In this document: positions 1 to 8,114 of the stretch, in pieces | Position numbering within the stretch: the stretch's first letter is position 1 | How the letters are laid out: each line of letters begins with the position of its first letter | Sequence record: OP168898.1 | Direction: 5' to 3' (one strand) | DNA length: 64,000 bases | Source: Escherichia phage ZCEC14 | Translations under genes and position numbers: made by a program | The notes under the pieces: model-generated | Told to the model about the DNA's origin: nothing | Database searches by the model: none | Seen by the model: only the letters and a program-made list of their open reading frames with translations

Positions 1-312
1 AAACCAAAGCATCACGCCTACGGAATGTTCCAAAATTATTTGCCTACTATGCGAGCAAGAGTTAAGGAACTTGGTTATAATATGACCGATGCTGAAATAA
101 AAAGAATGTTGAATAAACGATCCAATTCAGCTTCCTGGGCGTACATTGAACTTTCTTATTGGTTAAATATACATAAGGGCGATATAAGAAAAGCAATATC
201 CTCTTATAATTCGGGATGGAATGTTAAAGCAGGTTCTAAATATGCTTCTGAAGTCCTAGAAAAGGCTAATTACCTTAAAAATAATAAACTTTTGGAAATA
301 GTAAATGACTAA
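1..312 (+). CDS. hypothetical protein, C-terminal portion (5' end outside window)
   Basis: Frame open from base 1 to stop at 310-312; track ORF 25-312 is its internal-Met part; weak SYNSGW motif. Confidence 0.45.
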   Translation, partial: KPKHHAYGMFQNYLPTMRARVKELGYNMTDAEIKRMLNKRSNSASWAYIELSYWLNIHKGDIRKAISSYNSGWNVKAGSKYASEVLEKANYLKNNKLLEIVND

Positions 313-652
313 AATTTTGGTTTTATGTATAGGATTAATTTCATTTTCTGCTTCTGCGTCAGCAGATACATCATATACTGAAATTAGAGAATATGTAAAC
401 CGCACTGCGGCAGATTATTGTGGGAAAAATAAAGCATGCCAAGCTGAATTTGCACAGAAATTAATATATGCATATAAAGACGGAGAAAGAGATAAATCAA
501 GCAGATACAAAAACGATACATTATTAAAACGATATGCTAAAAAGTGGAATACTTTAGAATGTTCAGTTGCGGAGGAGAAAGATAAAGCCGCTTGTCATTC
601 AATGGTTGACCGTTTGGTAGATTCTTATAATCGAGGATTGAGTACTAGATGA
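305..652 (+). CDS. small secreted/periplasmic protein (N-terminal signal peptide)
   Basis: 115-aa ORF; N-terminus MTKILVLCIGLISFSASASA; start overlaps upstream stop; lies in the vs/tk.x block by synteny. Confidence 0.6.
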   Translation: MTKILVLCIGLISFSASASADTSYTEIREYVNRTAADYCGKNKACQAEFAQKLIYAYKDGERDKSSRYKNDTLLKRYAKKWNTLECSVAEEKDKAACHSMVDRLVDSYNRGLSTR

Positions 653-1116
653 TTGTAAAATATATCAAGGGCGATATTGTCGCCCTTTTCGCTGAAGGTA
701 AAAATATTGCGCATGGATGCAATTGTTTTCATACTATGGGTTCAGGCGTAGCGGGTCAATTAACCAAAGCTTTCCCTAAAATTTTGGAAGCTGATAAATT
801 ACAGACTGAATGGGGTGATGTAACTAAACTCGGTTCTTACTCAGTCTATGAAAAATACTTTAGGACTCATAAAGCGTATTGCTTCAACCTTTATACTCAA
901 TTTCAACCAGGGCCAAATTTTGAGTATTCCGCTTTAATGAATTGTATGTTAGAATTAAATGAGTTTGGTGAAAATAAACTGATTAAACCTACAATCTATA
1001 TGCCTAGGATTGGTGCAGGCATAGGTAAAGGGAACTGGGATATTATTGAGGGGATTTTAGATACGTATTCCTCTAAATTAGAAATTGTGATTGTTGATTG
1101 GGAACCGTTATTATGA
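649..1116 (+). CDS. macro-domain protein (ADP-ribose binding/processing family)
   Basis: 155-aa ORF; Gly-rich loops HGCNCFHTMGSGVAGQL and IGAGIGKGNW resemble macro-domain signature. Confidence 0.65.
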   Translation: MIVKYIKGDIVALFAEGKNIAHGCNCFHTMGSGVAGQLTKAFPKILEADKLQTEWGDVTKLGSYSVYEKYFRTHKAYCFNLYTQFQPGPNFEYSALMNCMLELNEFGENKLIKPTIYMPRIGAGIGKGNWDIIEGILDTYSSKLEIVIVDWEPLL

Positions 1117-1325
1117 ATATACATTATCCACATCCATATGACCCAAAGAATAAGGCAGTAATTATTCGTCAATGGGAACGCATTTGTCGTACTAAATGTC
1201 CAATTAATAGTCCACATGATGTAGATAAAGATTACATTGGAACATTCGTTGAATATACCTTTATTGATAAGAAAGGTCGTAAACAGCACGTAGAAGAATA
1301 CTGCTTAAAGGTGACATGGTTATGA
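1113..1325 (+). CDS. hypothetical protein
   Basis: 70 aa from in-frame ATG of track ORF 1098-1325; ATGA overlap with upstream stop. Confidence 0.5.
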   Translation: MNIHYPHPYDPKNKAVIIRQWERICRTKCPINSPHDVDKDYIGTFVEYTFIDKKGRKQHVEEYCLKVTWL

Positions 1326-1528
1326 GTCAAACTAGTATTCTTAAAAATGCCCACTGTGAAAAGTGTAAATGGCCGGTTGTTTTTGCTTTATGCAACGATG
1401 AAATGGCTTGTGATTTCGATTATTGGTGCTATTGTTCTAATAAAGGATGCATCAATCATAAAGGTGAAGGATTTTATTCGGGATTTTATCCTTATCCAGA
1501 ATTCGTTAAAGAAGGTAAACCGAAATGA
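1322..1528 (+). CDS. Cys-rich small protein (possible zinc binding)
   Basis: 68 aa; HCEKC...C...C..CYC..C pattern; SD-like aaaggtga upstream. Confidence 0.5.
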   Translation: MSQTSILKNAHCEKCKWPVVFALCNDEMACDFDYWCYCSNKGCINHKGEGFYSGFYPYPEFVKEGKPK

Positions 1529-1698
1529 ATAGTTCTGAGCTACAATATGAAGTGTCACGTGAACTTGATAATTTAATTGAACTCGCTGCTAATAAAGGTT
1601 TTGCCATTGGAATTGGTCAAAAAGATACTGATCATTTAACTATGGAAATATTTAAGCAAAAGCGAATTATTTTAAAACTTCTGGAAATTAATATATGA
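1525..1698 (+). CDS. hypothetical protein
   Basis: 57-aa ORF below track cutoff; ATGA overlaps at both ends suggest translational coupling. Confidence 0.4.
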   Translation: MNSSELQYEVSRELDNLIELAANKGFAIGIGQKDTDHLTMEIFKQKRIILKLLEINI

Positions 1699-1880
1699 GC
1701 CTAAGCAAAGAACAAAAAGACAAACTCTTTTCTCTTATCCACGAAGTTATGGATAAAAATAGTGAATTGGAAAAAGTTTGTAATGAATGCGGTCCTTTTA
1801 GCGCAAATGAATACGAAGAACTTTCCAAAGAATTTGATAATAAAGAACAAGAACTCATTAATTATATAAATTCCTTATGA
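1695..1880 (+). CDS. small helical protein (xEQxxK family)
   Basis: 61-aa ORF; N-terminal SKEQKDKLF motif shared with neighbouring small ORFs. Confidence 0.5.
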   Translation: MSLSKEQKDKLFSLIHEVMDKNSELEKVCNECGPFSANEYEELSKEFDNKEQELINYINSL

Positions 1881-2065
1881 TTACTCGCGAACAAAAGAAC
1901 GAAATATTATTTTTAGTTGGTGAAATTATTAGTTTAGAAAAGGATTTGTCTTTTGAATTATCTTCTGATTATGGAGATGCCGAAACATATTACGAATTAG
2001 TAAAATCTATCGATAAAGCTGAAAATGATTTAGAAACATATTTAGAAAATTTAACTAAGGACTAA
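1877..2065 (+). CDS. small helical protein (xEQxxK family)
   Basis: 62-aa ORF; TREQKNEILF motif; paralogue of 1695-1880. Confidence 0.5.
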   Translation: MITREQKNEILFLVGEIISLEKDLSFELSSDYGDAETYYELVKSIDKAENDLETYLENLTKD

Positions 2066-2066
2066 A

Positions 2067-2648
2067 ATGGCGAGTTTAATTTTTACTTATGCAGCAATGA
2101 ATGCTGGAAAATCTGCTTCTCTTTTGACTGCTGCACATAATTATAAAGAACGCGGAATGAGTGTATTAGTTCTTAAGCCTGCTATTGATACTCGCGACTC
2201 TGTCTGTGAAGTCGTTTCTCGCATTGGAATTAAGCAGGAAGCGAATATTATCACAGATGATATGGATATTTTCGAGTTCTATAAATGGGCTGAAGCACAA
2301 AAAGATATTCATTGTGTATTTGTAGATGAAGCTCAGTTTTTAAAAACTGAACAGGTGCATCAATTAAGCCGAATTGTTGATACATATAATGTTCCTGTTA
2401 TGGCTTATGGATTAAGGACTGATTTCGCTGGAAAATTATTTGAAGGTTCTAAAGAACTTTTAGCGATTGCAGATAAACTTATTGAACTAAAAGCAGTTTG
2501 TCATTGCGGTAAAAAAGCGATTATGACAGCTCGATTAATGGAAGATGGAACACCAGTTAAAGAAGGTAATCAAATCTGTATTGGTGATGAAATTTATGTT
2601 TCTTTGTGTAGAAAACATTGGAATGAATTAACTAAAAAGCTCGGTTAG
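2067..2648 (+). CDS. tk: thymidine kinase
   Basis: 193 aa; P-loop AAMNAGKS, VDEAQF, C-terminal Cys pairs; matches T4 Tk. Confidence 0.9.
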   Translation: MASLIFTYAAMNAGKSASLLTAAHNYKERGMSVLVLKPAIDTRDSVCEVVSRIGIKQEANIITDDMDIFEFYKWAEAQKDIHCVFVDEAQFLKTEQVHQLSRIVDTYNVPVMAYGLRTDFAGKLFEGSKELLAIADKLIELKAVCHCGKKAIMTARLMEDGTPVKEGNQICIGDEIYVSLCRKHWNELTKKLG

Positions 2649-2657
2649 TGCAAAAGT

Positions 2658-2665
2658 TATAAATA
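2658..2665 (+). promoter_or_regulatory. late-promoter consensus TATAAATA
   Basis: Exact TATAAATA 26 nt upstream of ATG 2691. Confidence 0.45.
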
Positions 2666-2690
2666 GGTTTATCTAACTAAAGGGGTATAT

Positions 2691-2903
2691 ATGTTACAAT
2701 TAACTGAAAAGCAACTTCGCAATCTTACTGTGCTTCAATTAGATGAAATTCGTAGGGAAGTTGGAAATATCATTTCAGCTTTGCGTCGAGAAGTATCACT
2801 CAACCAATCTCCGGCAGACTATACTAGATTGCGAAATTTTGAAAAATACCTTGATAAAGTTAAGGCCGTGCATCGGCACAAAGTAAATACAGGACAAAAA
2901 TGA
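2691..2903 (+). CDS. hypothetical protein (rI.-1 position)
   Basis: 70-aa ORF with SD aagggg; immediately upstream of rI. Confidence 0.55.
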
Positions 2904-2915
2904 TAGGAGGCCTTT

Positions 2916-3209
2916 ATGGCCTTAAAAGCAACGGCACTATTTGCCATGCTAGGATTGTCATTTGTTTTATCTCCATCGATTGAAGCGAATGTCGATCCTC
3001 ATTTTGATAAATTTATGGAATCTGGTATTAGGCACGTTTATACACTTTTTGAAAATAAAAGCGTAGAATCGTCTGAACAATTCTATAGTTTTATGAGAAC
3101 GACCTATAAAAATGACCCGTGCTCTTCTGATTTTGAATGTATAGAGCGAGGCGCGGAGATGGCACAATCATACGCTAGAATTATGAACATTAAATTGGAG
3201 ACTGAATGA
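2916..3209 (+). CDS. rI: lysis-inhibition regulator RI (signal-anchor-release protein)
   Basis: 97 aa; N-terminal hydrophobic anchor MALKATALFAMLGLSFVL; matches T4 RI in length and sequence as recalled; SD aggagg. Confidence 0.8.
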   Translation: MALKATALFAMLGLSFVLSPSIEANVDPHFDKFMESGIRHVYTLFENKSVESSEQFYSFMRTTYKNDPCSSDFECIERGAEMAQSYARIMNIKLETE

Positions 3210-3592
3210 AATTCAGCGACTTTTCACAAAGTGGAAAACCTTCGAAGGCAGATGAATACTTAGGTTTATTAATGGCTGCACAAGCTTATTTTCATTCTGC
3301 GCATTTTGAAACTAAAAATTATGCTAGACACAAAGCATACGATTTTATTTTCTCCGAGTTGCCAGATTTGATTGATAAATTTGGTGAACAATATTTGGGG
3401 TATTCTGGTAGAAAATACACACCTTCAATTCCAGATGCCAGTAAACTTCCTACCGACACAATTAAAATGATTGATCGCATATTAGACCAATCTAACAGCA
3501 TTTATAAAGAAATGCCTCCAGCCATCCAAAGCACGATAGATGATATTACTGGAATGTTTTACCAGAGTAAGTATCTTCTTTCCCTCGAATAA
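3206..3592 (+). CDS. hypothetical protein (rI.1 position)
   Basis: 128-aa ORF; ATGA overlap with rI stop. Confidence 0.55.
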
Positions 3593-3596
3593 CATT

Positions 3597-3619
3597 AGTC
3601 TCCTTCGGGAGACTTTTTT
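3597..3619 (+). terminator. intrinsic terminator (UUCG-loop hairpin plus T-run)
   Basis: agtctcc-ttcg-ggagact followed by tttttt. Confidence 0.75.
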
Positions 3620-3629
3620 CATTTTACCG

Positions 3630-3659
3630 GTTTACTTTCCGTTTGAGCTGTGGTATTAT
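3630..3659 (+). promoter_or_regulatory. early sigma70-type promoter
   Basis: -35 GTTTAC 3630-3635, 18-bp spacer, TGgTATTAT -10 at 3654-3659. Confidence 0.7.
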
Positions 3660-3687
3660 ACAACTATCGGATAAAGAGGAGAACATC

Positions 3688-3876
3688 ATGAAAATTGAAG
3701 CACTCAATCAAGAAGGAAATATCTACGTCATCATTAATGGTGATTTTTTCGTCGACATGGATGAAGTTACTAGTGAAGAACTTGTAGAAGTTCTTAAGAA
3801 ACGCTATAGTATGTGTGATGAAGCTGCAACTCATATGGCGTGTGCAATATTCTCTCTTTCATATGTGGTGGAATAA
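3688..3876 (+). CDS. hypothetical protein
   Basis: 62 aa from ATG with SD aagaggag; track ORF 3643 start lies inside the promoter. Confidence 0.5.
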
Positions 3877-4079
3877 TGATTAGTATTGAACAAGCAGATA
3901 AAATTAAAGAATTGGTAGCTTTAATTCGCAAAGCAGATGAGGAACTTAGTGACTTTGCTTGGTTTTCGGCAGGCATTGCAAATAAAGGTATTGAAGAATT
4001 TGAAGCTAAAGTTGATAATGCTGTAGAAGCTTTAGATATGTTTCTTGATGAAATTATCGATCACAATACGAGAGTTTAA
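3876..4079 (+). CDS. small helical protein (xEQxxK family)
   Basis: 67 aa from in-frame ATG; [13 protein letters not shown] motif. Confidence 0.5.
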   Translation: MISIEQADKIKELVALIRKADEELSDFAWFSAGIANKGIEEFEAKVDNAVEALDMFLDEIIDHNTRV

Positions 4080-4081
4080 GT

Positions 4082-4276
4082 ATGCTGACACACGAACAGT
4101 TTGAAAAAATCATTAAATTAGCACGTGATGTTGAAATAGATTCATATCAATTAGCAGTTGAGCATTGTGAAGGATATTCATACGAAGGTATAGCAGCAGC
4201 TAAAAGAGATTTGGATAAATCTAAAGCTAAGTTAGTTCAATATCTTGAAATGATTAGGTGGAATAATGAAAACTGA
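4082..4276 (+). CDS. small helical protein (xEQxxK family)
   Basis: 64-aa ORF; MLTHEQFEKIIKL motif. Confidence 0.5.
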   Translation: MLTHEQFEKIIKLARDVEIDSYQLAVEHCEGYSYEGIAAAKRDLDKSKAKLVQYLEMIRWNNEN

Positions 4277-4439
4277 AAAGCAGATGTTTTTAATGAAGCT
4301 AATTGAAGAATATGCTAATGCAGTTTCTGACTATGAGTGTTCTTCTAGGGAAAGAGGCATAGCTTTTGCAAAGGAAGAAATGAAAATCATGGTTGATGCT
4401 CACACAAAACTCCAGAATTTTATTGAAAACGTCATTTAA
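4266..4439 (+). CDS. hypothetical small protein
   Basis: 57-aa ORF below track cutoff, overlaps upstream stop; codon walk ends at taa 4437-4439. Confidence 0.4.
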   Translation: MKTEKQMFLMKLIEEYANAVSDYECSSRERGIAFAKEEMKIMVDAHTKLQNFIENVI

Positions 4440-4441
4440 TG

Positions 4442-4471
4442 GTTTACAAGTTGGCAAGGTTATGGTATAGT
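4442..4471 (+). promoter_or_regulatory. early sigma70-type promoter inside stem-loop (PeSL-like)
   Basis: -35 GTTTAC 4442-4447, -10 TATAGT 4466-4471; inverted repeat gttggcaag 4450-4458 / cttgccaac 4475-4483. Confidence 0.7.
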
Positions 4472-4499
4472 AATCTTGCCAACTGCCAAGGAGAAGAGA

Positions 4500-4604
4500 A
4501 TGAAAGTTTTGTTTGTTGTGTATGTGATGATTCAATATAATTACCCAATGTTTACTTATAATCTGGTGAACAACATTATTGATATTATTCAAAGGAGCAT
4601 GTAA
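4500..4604 (+). CDS. leader micro-ORF (34 aa)
   Basis: SD aaggag 7 nt upstream of ATG 4500; stop overlaps next ATG (TAATG). Confidence 0.3.
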   Translation: MKVLFVVYVMIQYNYPMFTYNLVNNIIDIIQRSM

Positions 4605-4789
4605 TGACAAGTGAGCAGGCTTTTAAATTAAGAGAATTAATTGAGATGTATAGTAAAGCTGTTCATGCATCAACAGTTATTGATGAATCAGCTTTCTCCG
4701 GACATGCTAATAAGATTAAATACAAAACTCTTATGGAAGAAGCTAAAGTAAATCTTGATTCTTATATTGAAACTTTAATTGGTGAATAA
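4604..4789 (+). CDS. small helical protein (xEQxxK family)
   Basis: 61-aa ORF; SD aaaggag. Confidence 0.5.
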   Translation: MTSEQAFKLRELIEMYSKAVHASTVIDESAFSGHANKIKYKTLMEEAKVNLDSYIETLIGE

Positions 4790-4790
4790 C

Positions 4791-5057
4791 ATGAGCTTTC
4801 CTAAATTAGAAGTAGGCGATTTAGTCTTAACAAAATTGTGGAATGATGCTCAATCAGTAGAAATCTGTCAATATCGTGGAGCAACAGGTAATTTGATGTA
4901 CACGATTTATAACCCAGAAATTTTGTTAGAGTGTCATTTGGAACGCTTTATAAAAGACACCGATAGTATGCCTTATAGTGTATCGATTGTACGTAAATCT
5001 GATACAAAGGAATACTCTAAAATTTTAGAACAAATTCATGCCAATAAAAAGGATTAA
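4791..5057 (+). CDS. hypothetical protein
   Basis: 88 aa from in-frame ATG directly after upstream stop. Confidence 0.5.
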   Translation: MSFPKLEVGDLVLTKLWNDAQSVEICQYRGATGNLMYTIYNPEILLECHLERFIKDTDSMPYSVSIVRKSDTKEYSKILEQIHANKKD

Positions 5058-5058
5058 T

Positions 5059-5589
5059 ATGAAACGATTAGTACTAGAAGTTAGTTCACTTTTTGGTGAA
5101 TTGGCTATAGAAAAAGTAAATAATATGTATCGTTTGACGCAAGAAGACGATATGCTATATTTTACGCCTAGCGAAATTATTCATTTAACCCAAATTGAAA
5201 AACCATACACTGATAAAATTGTAAGCATTAATGATGAGCATAAAATTCATTTTTATTCTTTATGCCCAGGATTTAATATTGAAAGCGAGTCAATATGCTT
5301 ATCAATTAATAATTGGGATAATTTTATAGCTAAGATTAAATATTTCTATTATTCTAATGAAAGAAAACATGGTTTAAAATGGTTTAAAAATTGCAATGCT
5401 ATTATTACTAACGCTTGTAATCAAAATTATGAAACTGTTTTAAATGTATCAAAATGCTATGAAGAGGGAGATGTCTTAACTATTCGTCAATCGGTAAATG
5501 ATGTTAATGTTGTTGTATTAAACAAAGAAGAAGCTGTTTTATTAAAGACTTATCTTGATTCTGTCATTCCAACTATGATTTCAAAGTGA
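5059..5589 (+). CDS. hypothetical protein (duplicated family, copy 1)
   Basis: 176 aa; shares GFNIE(S/D)E and C-terminal YL(D/T)xVxPxM motifs with next ORF. Confidence 0.55.
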   Translation: MKRLVLEVSSLFGELAIEKVNNMYRLTQEDDMLYFTPSEIIHLTQIEKPYTDKIVSINDEHKIHFYSLCPGFNIESESICLSINNWDNFIAKIKYFYYSNERKHGLKWFKNCNAIITNACNQNYETVLNVSKCYEEGDVLTIRQSVNDVNVVVLNKEEAVLLKTYLDSVIPTMISK

Positions 5590-5595
5590 GGAAAT

Positions 5596-6117
5596 ATGTT
5601 TATTTCAAGTGAAAGTGGTTTAATTCGTGTTGAATTTAAAAATGACATCTTCCTTATTCAAGGAGATGATAATATTAAAATGAGTTATGACGAAATTAAG
5701 AAAATTTGTCATGCTCTTGAAAGTCATGGAAAAGTAAATGCTACTATCGATATAGGCGATTTATGGGTGACACTTTATGAAGTATCCGAAGGATTTAACA
5801 TTGAAGATGAAAACAACATCTTAGCTATTGATAAAAGAAGTGATTTGTTTGATGTGTTAAAAGTTTATGAACAGTCAAACGGTGGAAGAAAAGCCGTATT
5901 AATTTATCAAAAACCGCATTCATGTGGAACTGCTTCAATCATTTCAAATATTGAAGATGAAACTGATACTTATATGTGTGTTTTGAAAGCTGGCCGTGAC
6001 CGTCATCCGGATTTTATTTCTATTCGTCAAAACAATGAAGAAATTTCATTATCAAAATCAGAAGCTGAAGCTATGATTAAGTATTTAACAACTGTTACAC
6101 CTTCAATGAAAGGATAA
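5596..6117 (+). CDS. hypothetical protein (duplicated family, copy 2)
   Basis: 173 aa; SD gtgagg; paralogue of 5059-5589. Confidence 0.55.
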   Translation: MFISSESGLIRVEFKNDIFLIQGDDNIKMSYDEIKKICHALESHGKVNATIDIGDLWVTLYEVSEGFNIEDENNILAIDKRSDLFDVLKVYEQSNGGRKAVLIYQKPHSCGTASIISNIEDETDTYMCVLKAGRDRHPDFISIRQNNEEISLSKSEAEAMIKYLTTVTPSMKG

Positions 6118-6119
6118 TT

Positions 6120-6581
6120 ATGATTATTAATGAAAGCTCTTGGCACTATAAATTATTCAAAATGTTTAATGATGAATGGAAACGGCCTAAGACACTATGC
6201 GCGTATTTTTGGTCTATTGTTATTCCTACATTTTTCGTTTCTTTTTTCGGATGTACTATACTCGCAGGTCTAACTATCATCTGTGCAGAAATCATACAGA
6301 AATGGTTTATTTTTGGTAGTTTATGGACTCTTATTCCATCAGCATTTGTACTTGCCATTTTGCTTGTTTTACTTATTATTGGTTCATTTGTTATTCCTGC
6401 ACAACTGCATGAAAAATATAAAGATTATAAATGGAAAAAGGATTATGCTTTACATGTAGAAAATATTGATAGGGCGTATAAAGGTTTACCTCCTATTCAA
6501 CCCAAGAAATCTATTATCGTCGAATTTTTAAAAGCTCGTAAAGCTAAAGTATGTCCTGTTATTGAATATAAGGCTGAATGA
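6120..6581 (+). CDS. membrane protein (about 3 predicted TM helices)
   Basis: 153 aa with long hydrophobic stretches. Confidence 0.55.
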   Translation: MIINESSWHYKLFKMFNDEWKRPKTLCAYFWSIVIPTFFVSFFGCTILAGLTIICAEIIQKWFIFGSLWTLIPSAFVLAILLVLLIIGSFVIPAQLHEKYKDYKWKKDYALHVENIDRAYKGLPPIQPKKSIIVEFLKARKAKVCPVIEYKAE

Positions 6582-7591
6582 TGAAAACAGTAATGAAAAG
6601 CTATTTTGGTAGTCATCTTTATGGAACTTCTACTCCAGAATCTGATGTAGATTTTAAAGAAATCTTTGTTCCTCCTGCTCGCGATATTCTTATCGGAAAT
6701 GTTAAAGAGCATATGAGTAAAAACACTAACAACACATCATCTAAAAACACTAAAGATGATATTGACCATGAACTATACAGTCTTAAGTATTTCTTTAAAT
6801 TAGCAGCAGACGGTGAAACTGTAGCATTGGATATGCTTCACACTCCGCCTGAACTAGTAGTTAAATCTGATTTGCCTGATGTATGGAAATTTATCCAAGA
6901 CAATCGTTCACGGTTTTATACAACTAACATGAAAGCCTATTTAGGATATGTGCGCAAGCAAGCTTCTAAATATGGTGTTAAGGGTTCTCGTTTGGCTGCA
7001 TTGCGTAATGTATTGAAAGTAGTTAATCAAATCCCCGATCAGTGGGTTGATTACCGAGAAGATGGAACACAAGGACAACGTCGTACTAAAATTGTAGATA
7101 TTAAACATCGGCTTCCTGAAAACGAGTTCTGTGAATGGGTATTCCATAACCACGAGAAAACAGGTCCTCAAACGTTCTATACTGTTCTTGGACGTAAGTA
7201 CCAAACCACCTTGTCTTTAATCGAGCTCAAGCAATCTCTGAATAAGCTCGATGCGGAATATGGTGAACGTGCTCGTAAGGCTGAAGCTAATGAAGGTATT
7301 GACTGGAAAGCTCTGAGTCATGCTTATCGCGCAGGGTATCAATTGATGGAAATCTACCAAACAGGTGATTTGGTGTTCCCATTGCGCGAAGCCTCTATCA
7401 TTAAGCTGATTAAAGCCGGTGAATTACCATTTAAAGAAGTTCAAGAACTTCTTGAAGATACTGTTGATTTGGTTGAAGTCCTAGCCATCCAGGCAGCTAA
7501 GAACGGTATGCCTGATAAGGTAGACATGAAGTTCTGGGACAAGTTCGTTGAAGAGGTATATCTTGAAAACCACCGAAGTTATTATAAATGA
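6578..7591 (+). CDS. Pol-beta-superfamily nucleotidyltransferase-like protein
   Basis: 337 aa; N-terminal GSHLYGTSTPESDVDF fits the hG[GS]x9-13Dh[DE]h signature. Confidence 0.6.
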   Translation: MMKTVMKSYFGSHLYGTSTPESDVDFKEIFVPPARDILIGNVKEHMSKNTNNTSSKNTKDDIDHELYSLKYFFKLAADGETVALDMLHTPPELVVKSDLPDVWKFIQDNRSRFYTTNMKAYLGYVRKQASKYGVKGSRLAALRNVLKVVNQIPDQWVDYREDGTQGQRRTKIVDIKHRLPENEFCEWVFHNHEKTGPQTFYTVLGRKYQTTLSLIELKQSLNKLDAEYGERARKAEANEGIDWKALSHAYRAGYQLMEIYQTGDLVFPLREASIIKLIKAGELPFKEVQELLEDTVDLVEVLAIQAAKNGMPDKVDMKFWDKFVEEVYLENHRSYYK

Positions 7592-7593
7592 TA

Positions 7594-7616
7594 GGGAGCC
7601 TTCGGTCTCCCTTTTT
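7594..7616 (+). terminator. intrinsic terminator
   Basis: gggagcc-ttcg-gtctccc hairpin followed by tttttg. Confidence 0.7.
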
Positions 7617-7639
7617 GTTTAAAATGACGTCACAAAGTT

Positions 7640-7669
7640 GTTTACAAGCATAAAGCTTTATGGTACTAT
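7640..7669 (+). promoter_or_regulatory. early sigma70-type promoter
   Basis: -35 GTTTAC 7640-7645, 18-bp spacer, TGgTACTAT -10 at 7664-7669. Confidence 0.7.
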
Positions 7670-7704
7670 ACAACTATCAACTGATGTGGATTTGGGGGAA
7701 TAAA

Positions 7705-7854
7705 ATGAAAACTACGTTAATTGAAGTAAAAAAGTTGATTGACACAGAAGAGATTTCAGCTTGTTTTGAAAATTTCTTAGAAGATGCAACTGAAGATAAC
7801 GCAGTTTATCTCGCTCAGAAAATTATAGAAACATATTTGGAGCAGAATCAATGA
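7705..7854 (+). CDS. small hypothetical protein
   Basis: 49 aa from ATG with leader ggatttgggggaataaaATG; track start 7660 lies in promoter. Confidence 0.4.
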   Translation: MKTTLIEVKKLIDTEEISACFENFLEDATEDNAVYLAQKIIETYLEQNQ

Positions 7855-8114
7855 CAGTTTACGTAGATGTTTTAATGAATCATGGATGGAAACTTCGCGG
7901 TCATCCAACTAAAAATTGTCATATGTTCACTGATGGAGATATTGAAGAGCTTCATGAAATGGCAGAAGCAATAGGAATGAAACGCTCTTGGTTTCAAGAT
8001 AAACGCATTAAACATTATGACTTACACGCGCGCCGCCGCCAAAAAGCCGTAGAACTTGGAGCTGTAGAAGTATCTCGTCGCGAAGCAGTAAAAATTTGGC
8101 GAACATTAAAATAA
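7851..8114 (+). CDS. hypothetical protein
   Basis: 87-aa ORF, ATGA overlap with upstream stop; His/Asp-rich (HPTKNCHMFTD...HYDLH). Confidence 0.5.
   Translation: MTVYVDVLMNHGWKLRGHPTKNCHMFTDGDIEELHEMAEAIGMKRSWFQDKRIKHYDLHARRRQKAVELGAVEVSRREAVKIWRTLK

What the first reader, a model, noticed from the sequence alone, without database searches (positions are those of the whole stretch)
1695..4789. Family of about 60-aa helical mini-proteins repeated at least six times
ORFs at 1695, 1877, 3876, 4082, 4604 (and probably 4266 and 7705) share a short N-terminal motif ([ST]xEQxxK[IL]xxL, for example SKEQKDKLF, TREQKNEILF, SIEQADKIKEL, THEQFEKIIKL, TSEQAFKLREL) and a Y[LI]Exx ending. Most are coupled by ATGA/TAATG overlaps. 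Such expanded mini-protein families in early regions are plausible modulators of host proteins; none has a known function.
Basis: seen in the sequence. Interest (0 to 1): 0.45.

Follow-up and report, generated by a model that had tools for sequence, protein, structure and literature searches.

The report
Six-copy T-even phage mini-protein family (DUF7438)
Six small early genes of this T4-like phage really are relatives of one another, each predicted to fold into a 7-kDa two-helix hairpin, but the family is already catalogued (Pfam DUF7438; T4 genes tk.1, tk.2, mobD.2a, mobD.3, mobD.4) and nobody knows what it does.

Summary
ORFs 1695, 1877, 3876, 4082, 4266 and 4604 all match Pfam PF24219 (DUF7438) over its full length, at 52-69 bits against a cut-off of 25. 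A leave-one-out test beats all 500 shuffles and every other ORF in the window. ORF 7705 is not a member.

The window is a T-even (Tequatrovirus) early region. The genes correspond to tk.2, tk.1, mobD.4, mobD.3, mobD.2a and RB14ncORF101c.

AlphaFold2 predicts an antiparallel two-helix hairpin (pLDDT 92 and 87) with a clean heptad core. The proteins are acidic.

In published T4 data the orthologues are transcribed early, four are detected as protein, and knock-down has no fitness cost on laboratory E. coli. Pooled pN/pS is 0.13, so they are under purifying selection.

Copy number is 6 in the window, T6 and RB14, and 2-4 intact copies in the other five loci scanned. The tk.2/tk.1 slot is swapped as a cassette between near-identical phages. 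Single copies also occur in N4-like phages and a Stenotrophomonas phage.

No sequence or fold match points to a function. My best guess, which is inferred and not shown, is that they are small early protein binders of host or defence proteins. The family is already known and of modest interest.

The parts
1695..1880 (+). tk.2 orthologue, DUF7438 member, 61 aa, pI 4.5
   Evidence: Pfam PF24219 at 69.2 bits. Synteny with RB14 and T4 tk.2. AF2 hairpin with helices 5-30 and 37-60, pLDDT 91.9. ATGA overlap with the upstream ORF.
1877..2065 (+). tk.1 orthologue, DUF7438 member, 62 aa, pI 4.15
   Evidence: Pfam 56.2 bits. Synteny. ATGA overlap with tk.2 and no Shine-Dalgarno sequence of its own. 100% identical to T2 tk.1.
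3876..4079 (+). mobD.4 orthologue (long-loop variant), DUF7438 member, 67 aa
   Evidence: Pfam 61.6 bits. Synteny. TAATG overlap with mobD.5. The T4 copy has a 7-residue shorter loop.
4082..4276 (+). mobD.3 orthologue, DUF7438 member, 64 aa
   Evidence: Pfam 56.8 bits. Synteny.
4266..4439 (+). mobD.2a orthologue (intact here, frameshifted in T4), DUF7438 member, 57 aa
   Evidence: Pfam 52.4 bits. phrog_2758. In T4 the two halves lie in different frames.
4604..4789 (+). RB14ncORF101c orthologue (no T4 counterpart), DUF7438 member, 61 aa
   Evidence: Pfam 55.9 bits. phrog_4859, labelled 'helicase loader' without support. AF2 hairpin with helices 3-28 and 33-59, pLDDT 86.9. Present in 192 phage records.
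3597..3614 (+). terminator-like hairpin after rI.-1, closing the upstream transcription unit
   Evidence: 7-bp stem plus T run.
3631..3659 (+). early-type (extended -10) promoter-like site ahead of mobD.5, mobD.4, mobD.3 and mobD.2a
   Evidence: TTTACT-17-TATTAT with TG. This is a consensus match only. T4 orthologues are classed as early RNA.
4443..4471 (+). early-type promoter-like site ahead of mobD.2 and ORF 4604
   Evidence: TTTACA-17-TATAGT with TG, 10/12. This is a consensus match only.

Best explanation
What it is (about 0.95 confidence): the six ORFs are real, expressed paralogous genes of the phage-specific family Pfam DUF7438. They are the T-even genes tk.2, tk.1, mobD.4, mobD.3 and mobD.2a, plus a sixth copy that T4 lacks. 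Each encodes a ~7-kDa acidic protein predicted to be one antiparallel two-helix coiled-coil hairpin. The N-terminus of helix 1 ([ST]xEQxxK[IL]xxL) and the C-terminus of helix 2 (LxxY[LI]E) pack against each other at the conserved open end. The connecting loop is variable.

How it most likely works (inferred, about 0.4 confidence): they are dispensable early accessory proteins. They act stoichiometrically as small protein-binding modules. Each either docks its hydrophobic stripe and conserved open end onto a host target (host take-over or counter-defence), or first pairs into a four-helix bundle that does so. Duplication, cassette replacement and loop and surface divergence would give each paralogue or allele a different target or target variant.

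Shown: family membership, fold prediction, early expression and protein detection of T4 orthologues, dispensability on laboratory hosts, purifying selection, and copy-number and allele polymorphism.

Inferred: any binding partner, oligomeric state and benefit to the phage.
For: - Membership and non-chance similarity.
- Fold: AF2 pLDDT 91.9 and 86.9, both two long helices. Hydrophobic residues fall at a/d heptad positions 11, 14, 18, 21, 25, 28 and 40, 43, 47, 50, 54, 57, 61. Two extra invariably hydrophobic 'e' positions (15 and 58) widen the stripe.
- The nearest PDB folds are all oligomerising hairpins (FrmR/CsoR, ZraP, Rop, designed homo-oligomers), though none is significant.
- Acidic: pI 4.15-5.3, net charge -2 to -10.
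- Real proteins: in T4, MobD.3 and MobD.4 are early RNA and early protein, and Tk.1 and Tk.2 are early RNA and middle protein (PMC9697503 supplement). Pooled pN/pS is 0.13 against T6, RB14 and T4.
- Accessory: T4 knock-downs of tk.1, tk.2, mobD.2a, mobD.3 and mobD.4 are all 'Not Fit' (PMC11879866 supplement). A T4 deletion spanning nrdC.11-mobD.3 is viable (PMC9825161).
- Polymorphic: 6 copies in the window, T6 and RB14; 4 plus a frameshifted one in T4; 4 in PYps5T; 3 each in RB69 and STML-198; 2 in Moon.
- Cassette swap: tk.2 is 56% identical between two Tequatroviruses whose flanking genes are 93-100% identical, and tk.1 is absent from one of them.
- Record counts among 50,697 phage records: tk.2-type 741 (168 at 80% identity or more), tk.1 190, mobD.4 504, ORF 4604 192.
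- Natural tk.2/tk.1 chimeras exist.
- Spread to other phage types: single copies occur in N4-like Gamaleyavirus, in the left-end early region next to the gp1 homologue, and in a Stenotrophomonas siphophage.
- The conservation is at protein level. Synonymous codons differ among the paralogues in the motif.
Against: - No partner, target or phenotype is known for any member.
- No similarity to any characterised inhibitor, anti-defence protein or defence component: PDB sequence profile, Foldseek against PDB and BFVD, NCBIfam and PADLOC all gave nothing.
- The conserved polar residues T4 and Q7 fall at core a/d heptad positions. They may simply fix helix register and capping and need not form a binding site.
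- A pN/pS of 0.13 means purifying selection, not overt diversifying selection. The polymorphism is by cassette exchange.
- The oligomeric state was not modelled.
Confidence: 0.45

Rival explanations
1. The hairpins work on the phage's own machinery. They form homo- or hetero-dimeric four-helix bundles that act as adaptors or regulators of phage proteins encoded nearby (nucleotide metabolism such as tk, lysis inhibition such as rI), and not on host proteins.
For: - Two syntenic slots, immediately upstream of tk and downstream of rI.-1, are kept in four Tevenvirinae genera.
- Adjacent paralogues are translationally coupled, and tk.1 lacks its own Shine-Dalgarno sequence. That pattern is typical of subunits made in fixed ratios.
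- The a/d/e hydrophobic stripe and the oligomeric nearest folds also fit.
Against: - Copies come and go without loss of tk or rI.
- N4-like phages and DLP_3 carry a single copy with no tk or rI nearby.
- Knock-downs have no fitness effect.
- Tight packing is general in this gene block.
Confidence: 0.15
2. They are small nucleic-acid-binding regulators, like Rop (RNA kissing loops) or CsoR/FrmR (DNA), which share the helical-hairpin shape.
For: The Foldseek top hits include FrmR, CsoR and Rop, with TM 0.81-0.87 normalised to the query.
Against: - All these hits have E of 0.86 or more, and a two-helix hairpin is a generic shape.
- The proteins are acidic (pI 4.15-5.3, net charge -2 to -10), and there is no conserved basic patch in the column table.
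- There is no sequence relationship to any PDB chain.
Confidence: 0.05
3. ORF 4604 and its orthologues are a 'helicase loader', as phrog_4859 and several RefSeq records say.
For: ORF 4604 matches phrog_4859 at 128.6 bits, and that PHROG carries the label. RefSeq repeats the label for RB69 'tk.1', RB14ncORF101c and others.
Against: - It is a 61-aa two-helix hairpin in the same Pfam family as five paralogues of unknown function.
- It has no Pfam, NCBIfam or PDB match to any helicase-loader family.
- It is missing from T4 itself and is found in only 192 phage records, against 741 for the tk.2 type and 504 for mobD.4.
- The label looks like a propagated annotation. The same records also carry the plainly wrong 'molybdopterin-guanine dinucleotide biosynthesis protein MobD'.
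Confidence: 0.02
4. The similarity is chance among AT-rich helical peptides, or the ORFs are non-functional filler.
For: Pairwise identity among the paralogues is only 21-41%, and individual knock-downs have no phenotype.
Against: - Leave-one-out HMM: 0 of 500 shuffles reach the real score, and each left-out member ranks first among 706 ORFs.
- Pfam scores are 2-3 times the curated threshold.
- pN/pS is 0.13.
- Proteins are detected in T4.
- The family is conserved across genera and phage families.
Confidence: 0.02

Closest known systems
Pfam PF24219 (DUF7438); PHROGs 653, 2758, 4859; T4 genes tk.1, tk.2, mobD.3, mobD.4, mobD.2a
   Same: All six ORFs are full-length members above the curated threshold. 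They have the same length, the same motifs and the same genomic slots as the T4, T6 and RB14 genes. For the four I searched (tk.2, tk.1, mobD.4, ORF 4604), 100%-identical proteins are already in GenBank phage records.
   Different: Nothing essential differs. This phage carries the full set of six, with mobD.2a intact and with the sixth copy (4604) that T4 lacks. PHROGs splits the family into three groups that Pfam unites.
Rop (ColE1 repressor of primer) and other helical-hairpin oligomers (CsoR/FrmR, ZraP, designed hairpin bundles)
   Same: They share a ~60-residue antiparallel two-helix hairpin with a heptad core. TM-score is 0.81-0.87 normalised to the query.
   Different: There is no significant fold or sequence score: E is 0.86 or more and nothing appears in a PDB profile search. 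The proteins are acidic, not basic. Oligomeric state is unknown. I make no homology claim.
Small early phage inhibitors of host proteins or host defences (from general knowledge, for example T4 Dmd, T7 Gp2, lambda Kil, small anti-CRISPR and anti-defence proteins)
   Same: They are similar in size (50-70 aa), early expression, dispensability on laboratory hosts, and patchy distribution among close relatives.
   Different: No sequence or structural relationship was found. No target is known. This is an analogy of lifestyle only, recalled from knowledge and not tested here.

Membership tests
Pfam DUF7438 (PF24219) | Whole-protein score above the curated gathering threshold (25 bits) | tested here: met
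   The six ORFs score 69.2, 56.2, 61.6, 56.8, 52.4 and 55.9 bits. ORF 7705 has no hit.
Pfam DUF7438 (PF24219) | Match covers the whole 57-position model in a single-domain protein of about 57-67 aa | tested here: met
   Model positions 1-57 (1-56 for ORF 4266) are matched in all six.
Pfam DUF7438 (PF24219) | Similarity among the copies exceeds composition-matched chance | tested here: met
   In the leave-one-out HMM test, 0 of 500 shuffles reach the real score, and each left-out copy is the top non-training ORF of 706.
Pfam DUF7438 (PF24219) | Two-helix hairpin fold | tested here: met
   AF2 models of tk.2 (pLDDT 91.9) and ORF 4604 (pLDDT 86.9) both show two long helices. The other four were not modelled, but they align without breaks in the helices.
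Pfam DUF7438 (PF24219) | Seventh candidate (ORF 7705) belongs to the family | tested here: not met
   No Pfam hit. It falls in phrog_6888, scores 2.6 bits on the family HMM and has 4% hhalign probability.
Helicase loader (label of phrog_4859) | Sequence or structural relationship to a characterised helicase-loading protein | tested here: not met
   The only Pfam family above threshold is DUF7438. NCBIfam and the PDB sequence profile gave nothing. The Foldseek hits are generic hairpins.
Helicase loader (label of phrog_4859) | Binds and loads a replicative helicase | not testable with these tools
   This needs biochemistry. ORF 4604 has no counterpart in T4.
Rop-like four-helix-bundle RNA binders | Significant structural or sequence match, and a basic RNA-binding face | tested here: not met
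   The Rop hits have E of 3.8-4.3. The proteins have pI 4.15-5.3.
Known anti-phage defence or counter-defence protein families | Match to a catalogued model | tested here: not met
   The best PADLOC E-value is 0.048, at 11 bits. PADLOC holds defence proteins, not anti-defence proteins, so this is only a partial test.

The most novel reading that the evidence does not exclude
The DUF7438 hairpins are a diversifying array of counter-defence or host-take-over binders. Each paralogue or allele would neutralise a different host protein or variant, possibly as combinatorial hetero-dimeric four-helix bundles. The tk.2/tk.1 cassette swap and the 2-to-6 copy-number range would then be the footprint of an arms race, and the same module would have been passed horizontally to N4-like phages and siphophages.
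Probability: 0.2. Interest if true: 0.6.

Novelty: already known. Interest (0 to 1): 0.25.

Why it matters
T4 is the best-studied virulent phage, yet many of its genes, including all of these, have no known function. This family is a compact, tractable example. It has six expressed 7-kDa paralogues in one genome and a confident predicted fold. It is dispensable on laboratory hosts and strongly polymorphic among near-identical phages, and it has a footprint in unrelated phage families. If a target were found, it would explain a recurrent block of T-even 'dark matter' and might add a new class of minimal helical inhibitors. As it stands, the finding confirms a catalogued domain of unknown function and adds no new biology by itself.

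Tried and rejected
- ORF 7705, rI.1 (2691) and RB32ORF110c (1525) as extra members: rejected by Pfam, HMM and hhalign.
- ORFs 53515 and 45061, which scored weakly in one leave-one-out model: they belong to other PHROGs, an FmdB-like zinc-ribbon group and the sigma-32 decoy.
- An RNA-level explanation of the conserved N-terminal motif: rejected, because synonymous codons differ among the paralogues.
- The 'helicase loader' and 'molybdopterin ... MobD' names: rejected as annotation artefacts.
- PDB sequence profile, Foldseek against PDB and BFVD, NCBIfam and PADLOC: no informative match.
- Literature: no paper holds 'DUF7438'. Searches for the gene names found only a deletion list, a RegB target list and omics or CRISPRi tables. 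The 2003 T4 genome review is not held.
- The search for related loci with the family alignment failed, because no stretch was conserved enough.
- Escherichia phage Av-05 as an independent non-T4 host of the family: rejected. Its copy sits in an RB69-like regB-vs-tk.4-tk-rI block, so that region of the record is T4-like.
- In one search I mistyped the first four residues of IME11_78; the true start is MSLNPKQ. The IME11 column of that identity matrix is therefore approximate and is not used.
Full report
**Where we are.** The window is an early-gene region of a T-even phage (Tequatrovirus), read in the direction of early transcription. Bases 1500-5100 match phage T6 at 97.4% over their full length, and 493 phage records match at 95-99%. 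By synteny with RB14 and T4 the gene order is:
- vs (305), tk.4 (649), tk.3 (1113), RB32ORF111c (1316), RB32ORF110c (1525)
- tk.2 (1695), tk.1 (1877), tk (2067), rI.1 (2691), rI (2916), rI.-1 (3206)
- mobD.5 (3688), mobD.4 (3876), mobD.3 (4082), mobD.2a (4266), mobD.2 (4500)
- RB14ncORF101c (4604), RB14ncORF100c (4791), two mobD.1-like genes (5059, 5596), RB32ORF096c (6120), nrdC.11 (6578), nrdC.10 (8166)

- ORFs 1695, 1877, 3876, 4082, 4266 and 4604 (57-67 aa) each match Pfam PF24219 (DUF7438) over the whole 57-position model. E-values run from 4e-19 to 7e-14, and scores are 52-69 bits against a curated cut-off of 25.
With an HMM built from five members, the sixth scored 12.6-23.0 bits. The best of 500 shuffles scored 8-10 bits. 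The left-out gene was always the best non-training ORF among 706 ORFs in the window.
- A deeper 69-sequence HMM finds exactly six members in the 64 kb (58-92 bits), and the next ORF scores 6 bits.
- The overlaps are as described: ATGA twice, TAATG twice, and one 11-nt overlap. The unrelated neighbouring genes are packed the same way.
- ORF 7705 is not a member. Neither are the other small helical neighbours rI.1 and RB32ORF110c.

**What the proteins look like.**
- AlphaFold2 with the family alignment gives confident two-helix hairpins. For tk.2 the pLDDT is 91.9, with helices 5-30 and 37-60. For ORF 4604 the pLDDT is 86.9, with helices 3-28 and 33-59.
- Invariably hydrophobic columns fall on a 3-4 spacing: 11, 14, 18, 21, 25, 28 in helix 1 and 40, 43, 47, 50, 54, 57, 61 in helix 2. 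This is an antiparallel coiled-coil core. Two extra always-hydrophobic 'e' positions (15 and 58) widen the stripe.
- The conserved N-terminal motif and the conserved C-terminal motif therefore sit side by side at the open end of the hairpin.
- The loop is the variable part. For example, mobD.4 exists with a 7-residue longer or shorter loop.
- The proteins are acidic, with pI 4.15-5.3 and net charge -2 to -10.
- The conservation is at protein level. Synonymous codons differ between paralogues within the motif.

**Are they real genes?**
- Pooled pN/pS of the six genes against T6, RB14 and T4 is 0.13. Eight neighbouring genes give 0.05.
- In T4 itself, published time-resolved omics class mobD.3 and mobD.4 as early RNA and early protein, and tk.1 and tk.2 as early RNA and middle protein (PMC9697503 supplement).
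- Promoter-like extended -10 sites at 3631-3659 and 4443-4471 and a terminator-like hairpin at 3597-3614 fit early transcription units. These are consensus matches only.

**Are they needed?** Not on laboratory hosts.
- Genome-wide dCas13d knock-down of T4 scored tk.1, tk.2, mobD.2a, mobD.3 and mobD.4 as 'Not Fit' (PMC11879866 supplement).
- A viable T4 deletion spans nrdC.11 to mobD.3 (PMC9825161).

**Distribution and dynamics.**
- The family is small and found only in phages. A profile search of 1.84 billion representative proteins gives 29 hits. Two of them are giant multi-stretch proteins that look spurious, and the rest are about 40-76 aa. A word-indexed search gives 111 clusters, 108 carrying PF24219. 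They are mostly from T-even phages, or from bacterial assemblies on contigs of 165-170 kb, the size of a T-even genome.
- Copy number differs between phages:

| Phage | Copies |
|---|---|
| Window, T6, RB14 | 6 |
| T4 | 4 intact, plus mobD.2a split by a frameshift; lacks the ORF-4604 type |
| Tequatrovirus PYps5T | 4 |
| RB69 (Mosigvirus) | 3 |
| STML-198 (Gelderlandvirus) | 3 |
| Moon (Moonvirus) | 2 |

- Two slots are kept across these four genera. One is immediately upstream of tk and the other is downstream of rI.-1.
- Paralogues are 21-41% identical to each other. Tequatrovirus-Mosigvirus orthologues are 37-50% identical. So at least three lineages predate that split.
- The tk.2/tk.1 slot behaves as a cassette. 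Between the window and PYps5T the flanking genes are 93-100% identical in protein, but tk.2 is 56% identical (67% in DNA) and tk.1 is missing.
- Across 50,697 phage records the tk.2 type occurs in 741, of which only 168 are at least 80% identical to this allele. tk.1 occurs in 190, mobD.4 in 504 and ORF 4604 in 192.
- Natural chimeras join the N-terminal half of tk.2 to the C-terminal half of tk.1 (P0002, P0091). This shows recombination between the tandem copies.
- Outside the T4-like phages, single copies occur in N4-like Gamaleyavirus phages. IME11_78 scores 51 bits and sits in the left-end early region next to the gp1 homologue. Another copy is in Stenotrophomonas siphophage DLP_3 at 27.3 bits.

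**What do they do?** Nothing here or in the searchable literature says.
- The PDB sequence profile gave nothing.
- Foldseek against the PDB gave no hit below E = 0.86. The top hits are generic oligomerising hairpins: FrmR/CsoR, ZraP, Rop and designed bundles.
- Foldseek against BFVD gave only uncharacterised phage proteins.
- NCBIfam and PADLOC gave nothing.
- 'DUF7438' occurs in no held paper.
- The 'helicase loader' label on phrog_4859 and in some RefSeq records has no support.
- The name 'molybdopterin-guanine dinucleotide biosynthesis protein MobD', given to mobD.4 in RefSeq T4, is a gene-name collision.

**Best explanation.** It has two layers.
- Identity (about 0.95): these are six real paralogues of DUF7438, encoding acidic antiparallel coiled-coil hairpins made early in infection.
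- Mechanism (about 0.4, inferred): they are stoichiometric protein binders of host proteins, for take-over or counter-defence. They may act after pairing into four-helix bundles, and duplication and cassette exchange would supply different specificities.
- Evidence that fits: early timing, dispensability on laboratory strains, patchy and allelic distribution among near-identical phages, horizontal presence in other virulent phages, acidity (which argues against nucleic-acid binding), and a hydrophobic stripe wider than a monomeric hairpin needs.
- Evidence that weakens it: no partner is known. The conserved T4 and Q7 sit at core heptad positions and may be purely structural. Selection on orthologues is purifying.

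**Rivals.**
- Adaptors for the phage's own proteins: 0.15.
- Rop- or CsoR-like nucleic-acid binders: 0.05.
- Helicase loader: 0.02.
- Chance similarity or junk ORFs: 0.02, and already refuted.

**Verdict.** The family is already catalogued and named, and 100%-identical proteins are already in GenBank phage records for the four ORFs I searched. Novelty is 'already known' and interest is modest (0.25). The family remains a good, cheap target for partner and anti-defence screens.

Noticed in passing
window 1695-2065, compared with L008 (Yersinia phage PYps5T) 4501-4686: The tk.2/tk.1 slot is exchanged as a cassette between otherwise near-identical Tequatroviruses. Flanking genes are 93-100% identical in protein, tk.2 is only 56% identical (67% in DNA), and tk.1 is absent. 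Only 168 of 741 phage records with a tk.2-type gene carry this allele.
   Followed up: partly
window 5059-5589 and 5596-6117: This is a second tandem paralogue pair. Both ORFs carry Pfam T4_y05I_N plus T4_y05I_C ('y05I-like putative transcription factor', mobD.1-like).
   Followed up: no
window 7593-8114: The gap between nrdC.11 and nrdC.10 is 574 bp here, against 114 bp in both RB14 and T4. The extra DNA holds a terminator-like hairpin (7593-7612), a promoter-like site (7641-7669), ORF 7705 (phrog_6888) and ORF 7851-8114 (Pfam DUF4031, 77.7 bits).
   Followed up: partly
L007 (T4 NC_000866) 2697-2878, the orthologue of window 4266-4439: T4 mobD.2a, annotated as 38 aa, is split by a frameshift. 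The N-terminal and C-terminal halves hit the family HMM in different reading frames. The gene is intact in the window, T6, RB14 and PYps5T.
   Followed up: yes
proteins P0002, P0091, P0110, P0129 (relatives from other phages): Natural chimeras exist. One type joins the tk.2 N-terminal half to the tk.1 C-terminal half (UFV-AREG1 and another). Another joins the mobD.3 N-terminal half to the C-terminus of nrdC.11, which is the product of a deletion between the two genes.
   Followed up: partly
public annotations of orthologues (T4 NC_000866 mobD.4; RB69 'tk.1'; RB14ncORF101c; T6 AP018814): There are propagated misannotations. mobD.4 is called 'molybdopterin-guanine dinucleotide biosynthesis protein MobD' (a gene-name collision). 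The ORF-4604 type is called 'helicase loader'. In one T6 record, small ORFs of this block are called 'kilA anti-repressor', 'rI antiholin', 'tail assembly protein' and similar.
   Followed up: partly
L005 (Escherichia phage Av-05, NC_025830) 1-6180: This record is classified in Vequintavirinae (120.9 kb). It carries an RB69-like regB-vs-tk.4-tk.2-tk-rI block next to a major capsid gene on the other strand. It looks like a chimeric assembly or a mis-classified record.
   Followed up: no
window 3670-3687 and 4590-4603: The Shine-Dalgarno regions of mobD.5 (GAGGAG) and of ORF 4604 (AAGGAG) contain GGAG, the RegB endoribonuclease cleavage motif. A paper on RegB targets mentions mobD.5.
   Followed up: no
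window 649-1116, 4791-5057, 6578-7591: Neighbouring genes have suggestive domains: tk.4 has a Macro domain, RB14ncORF100c has a 'Phage tudor domain', and nrdC.11 has an RlaP-type nucleotidyltransferase domain.
   Followed up: no
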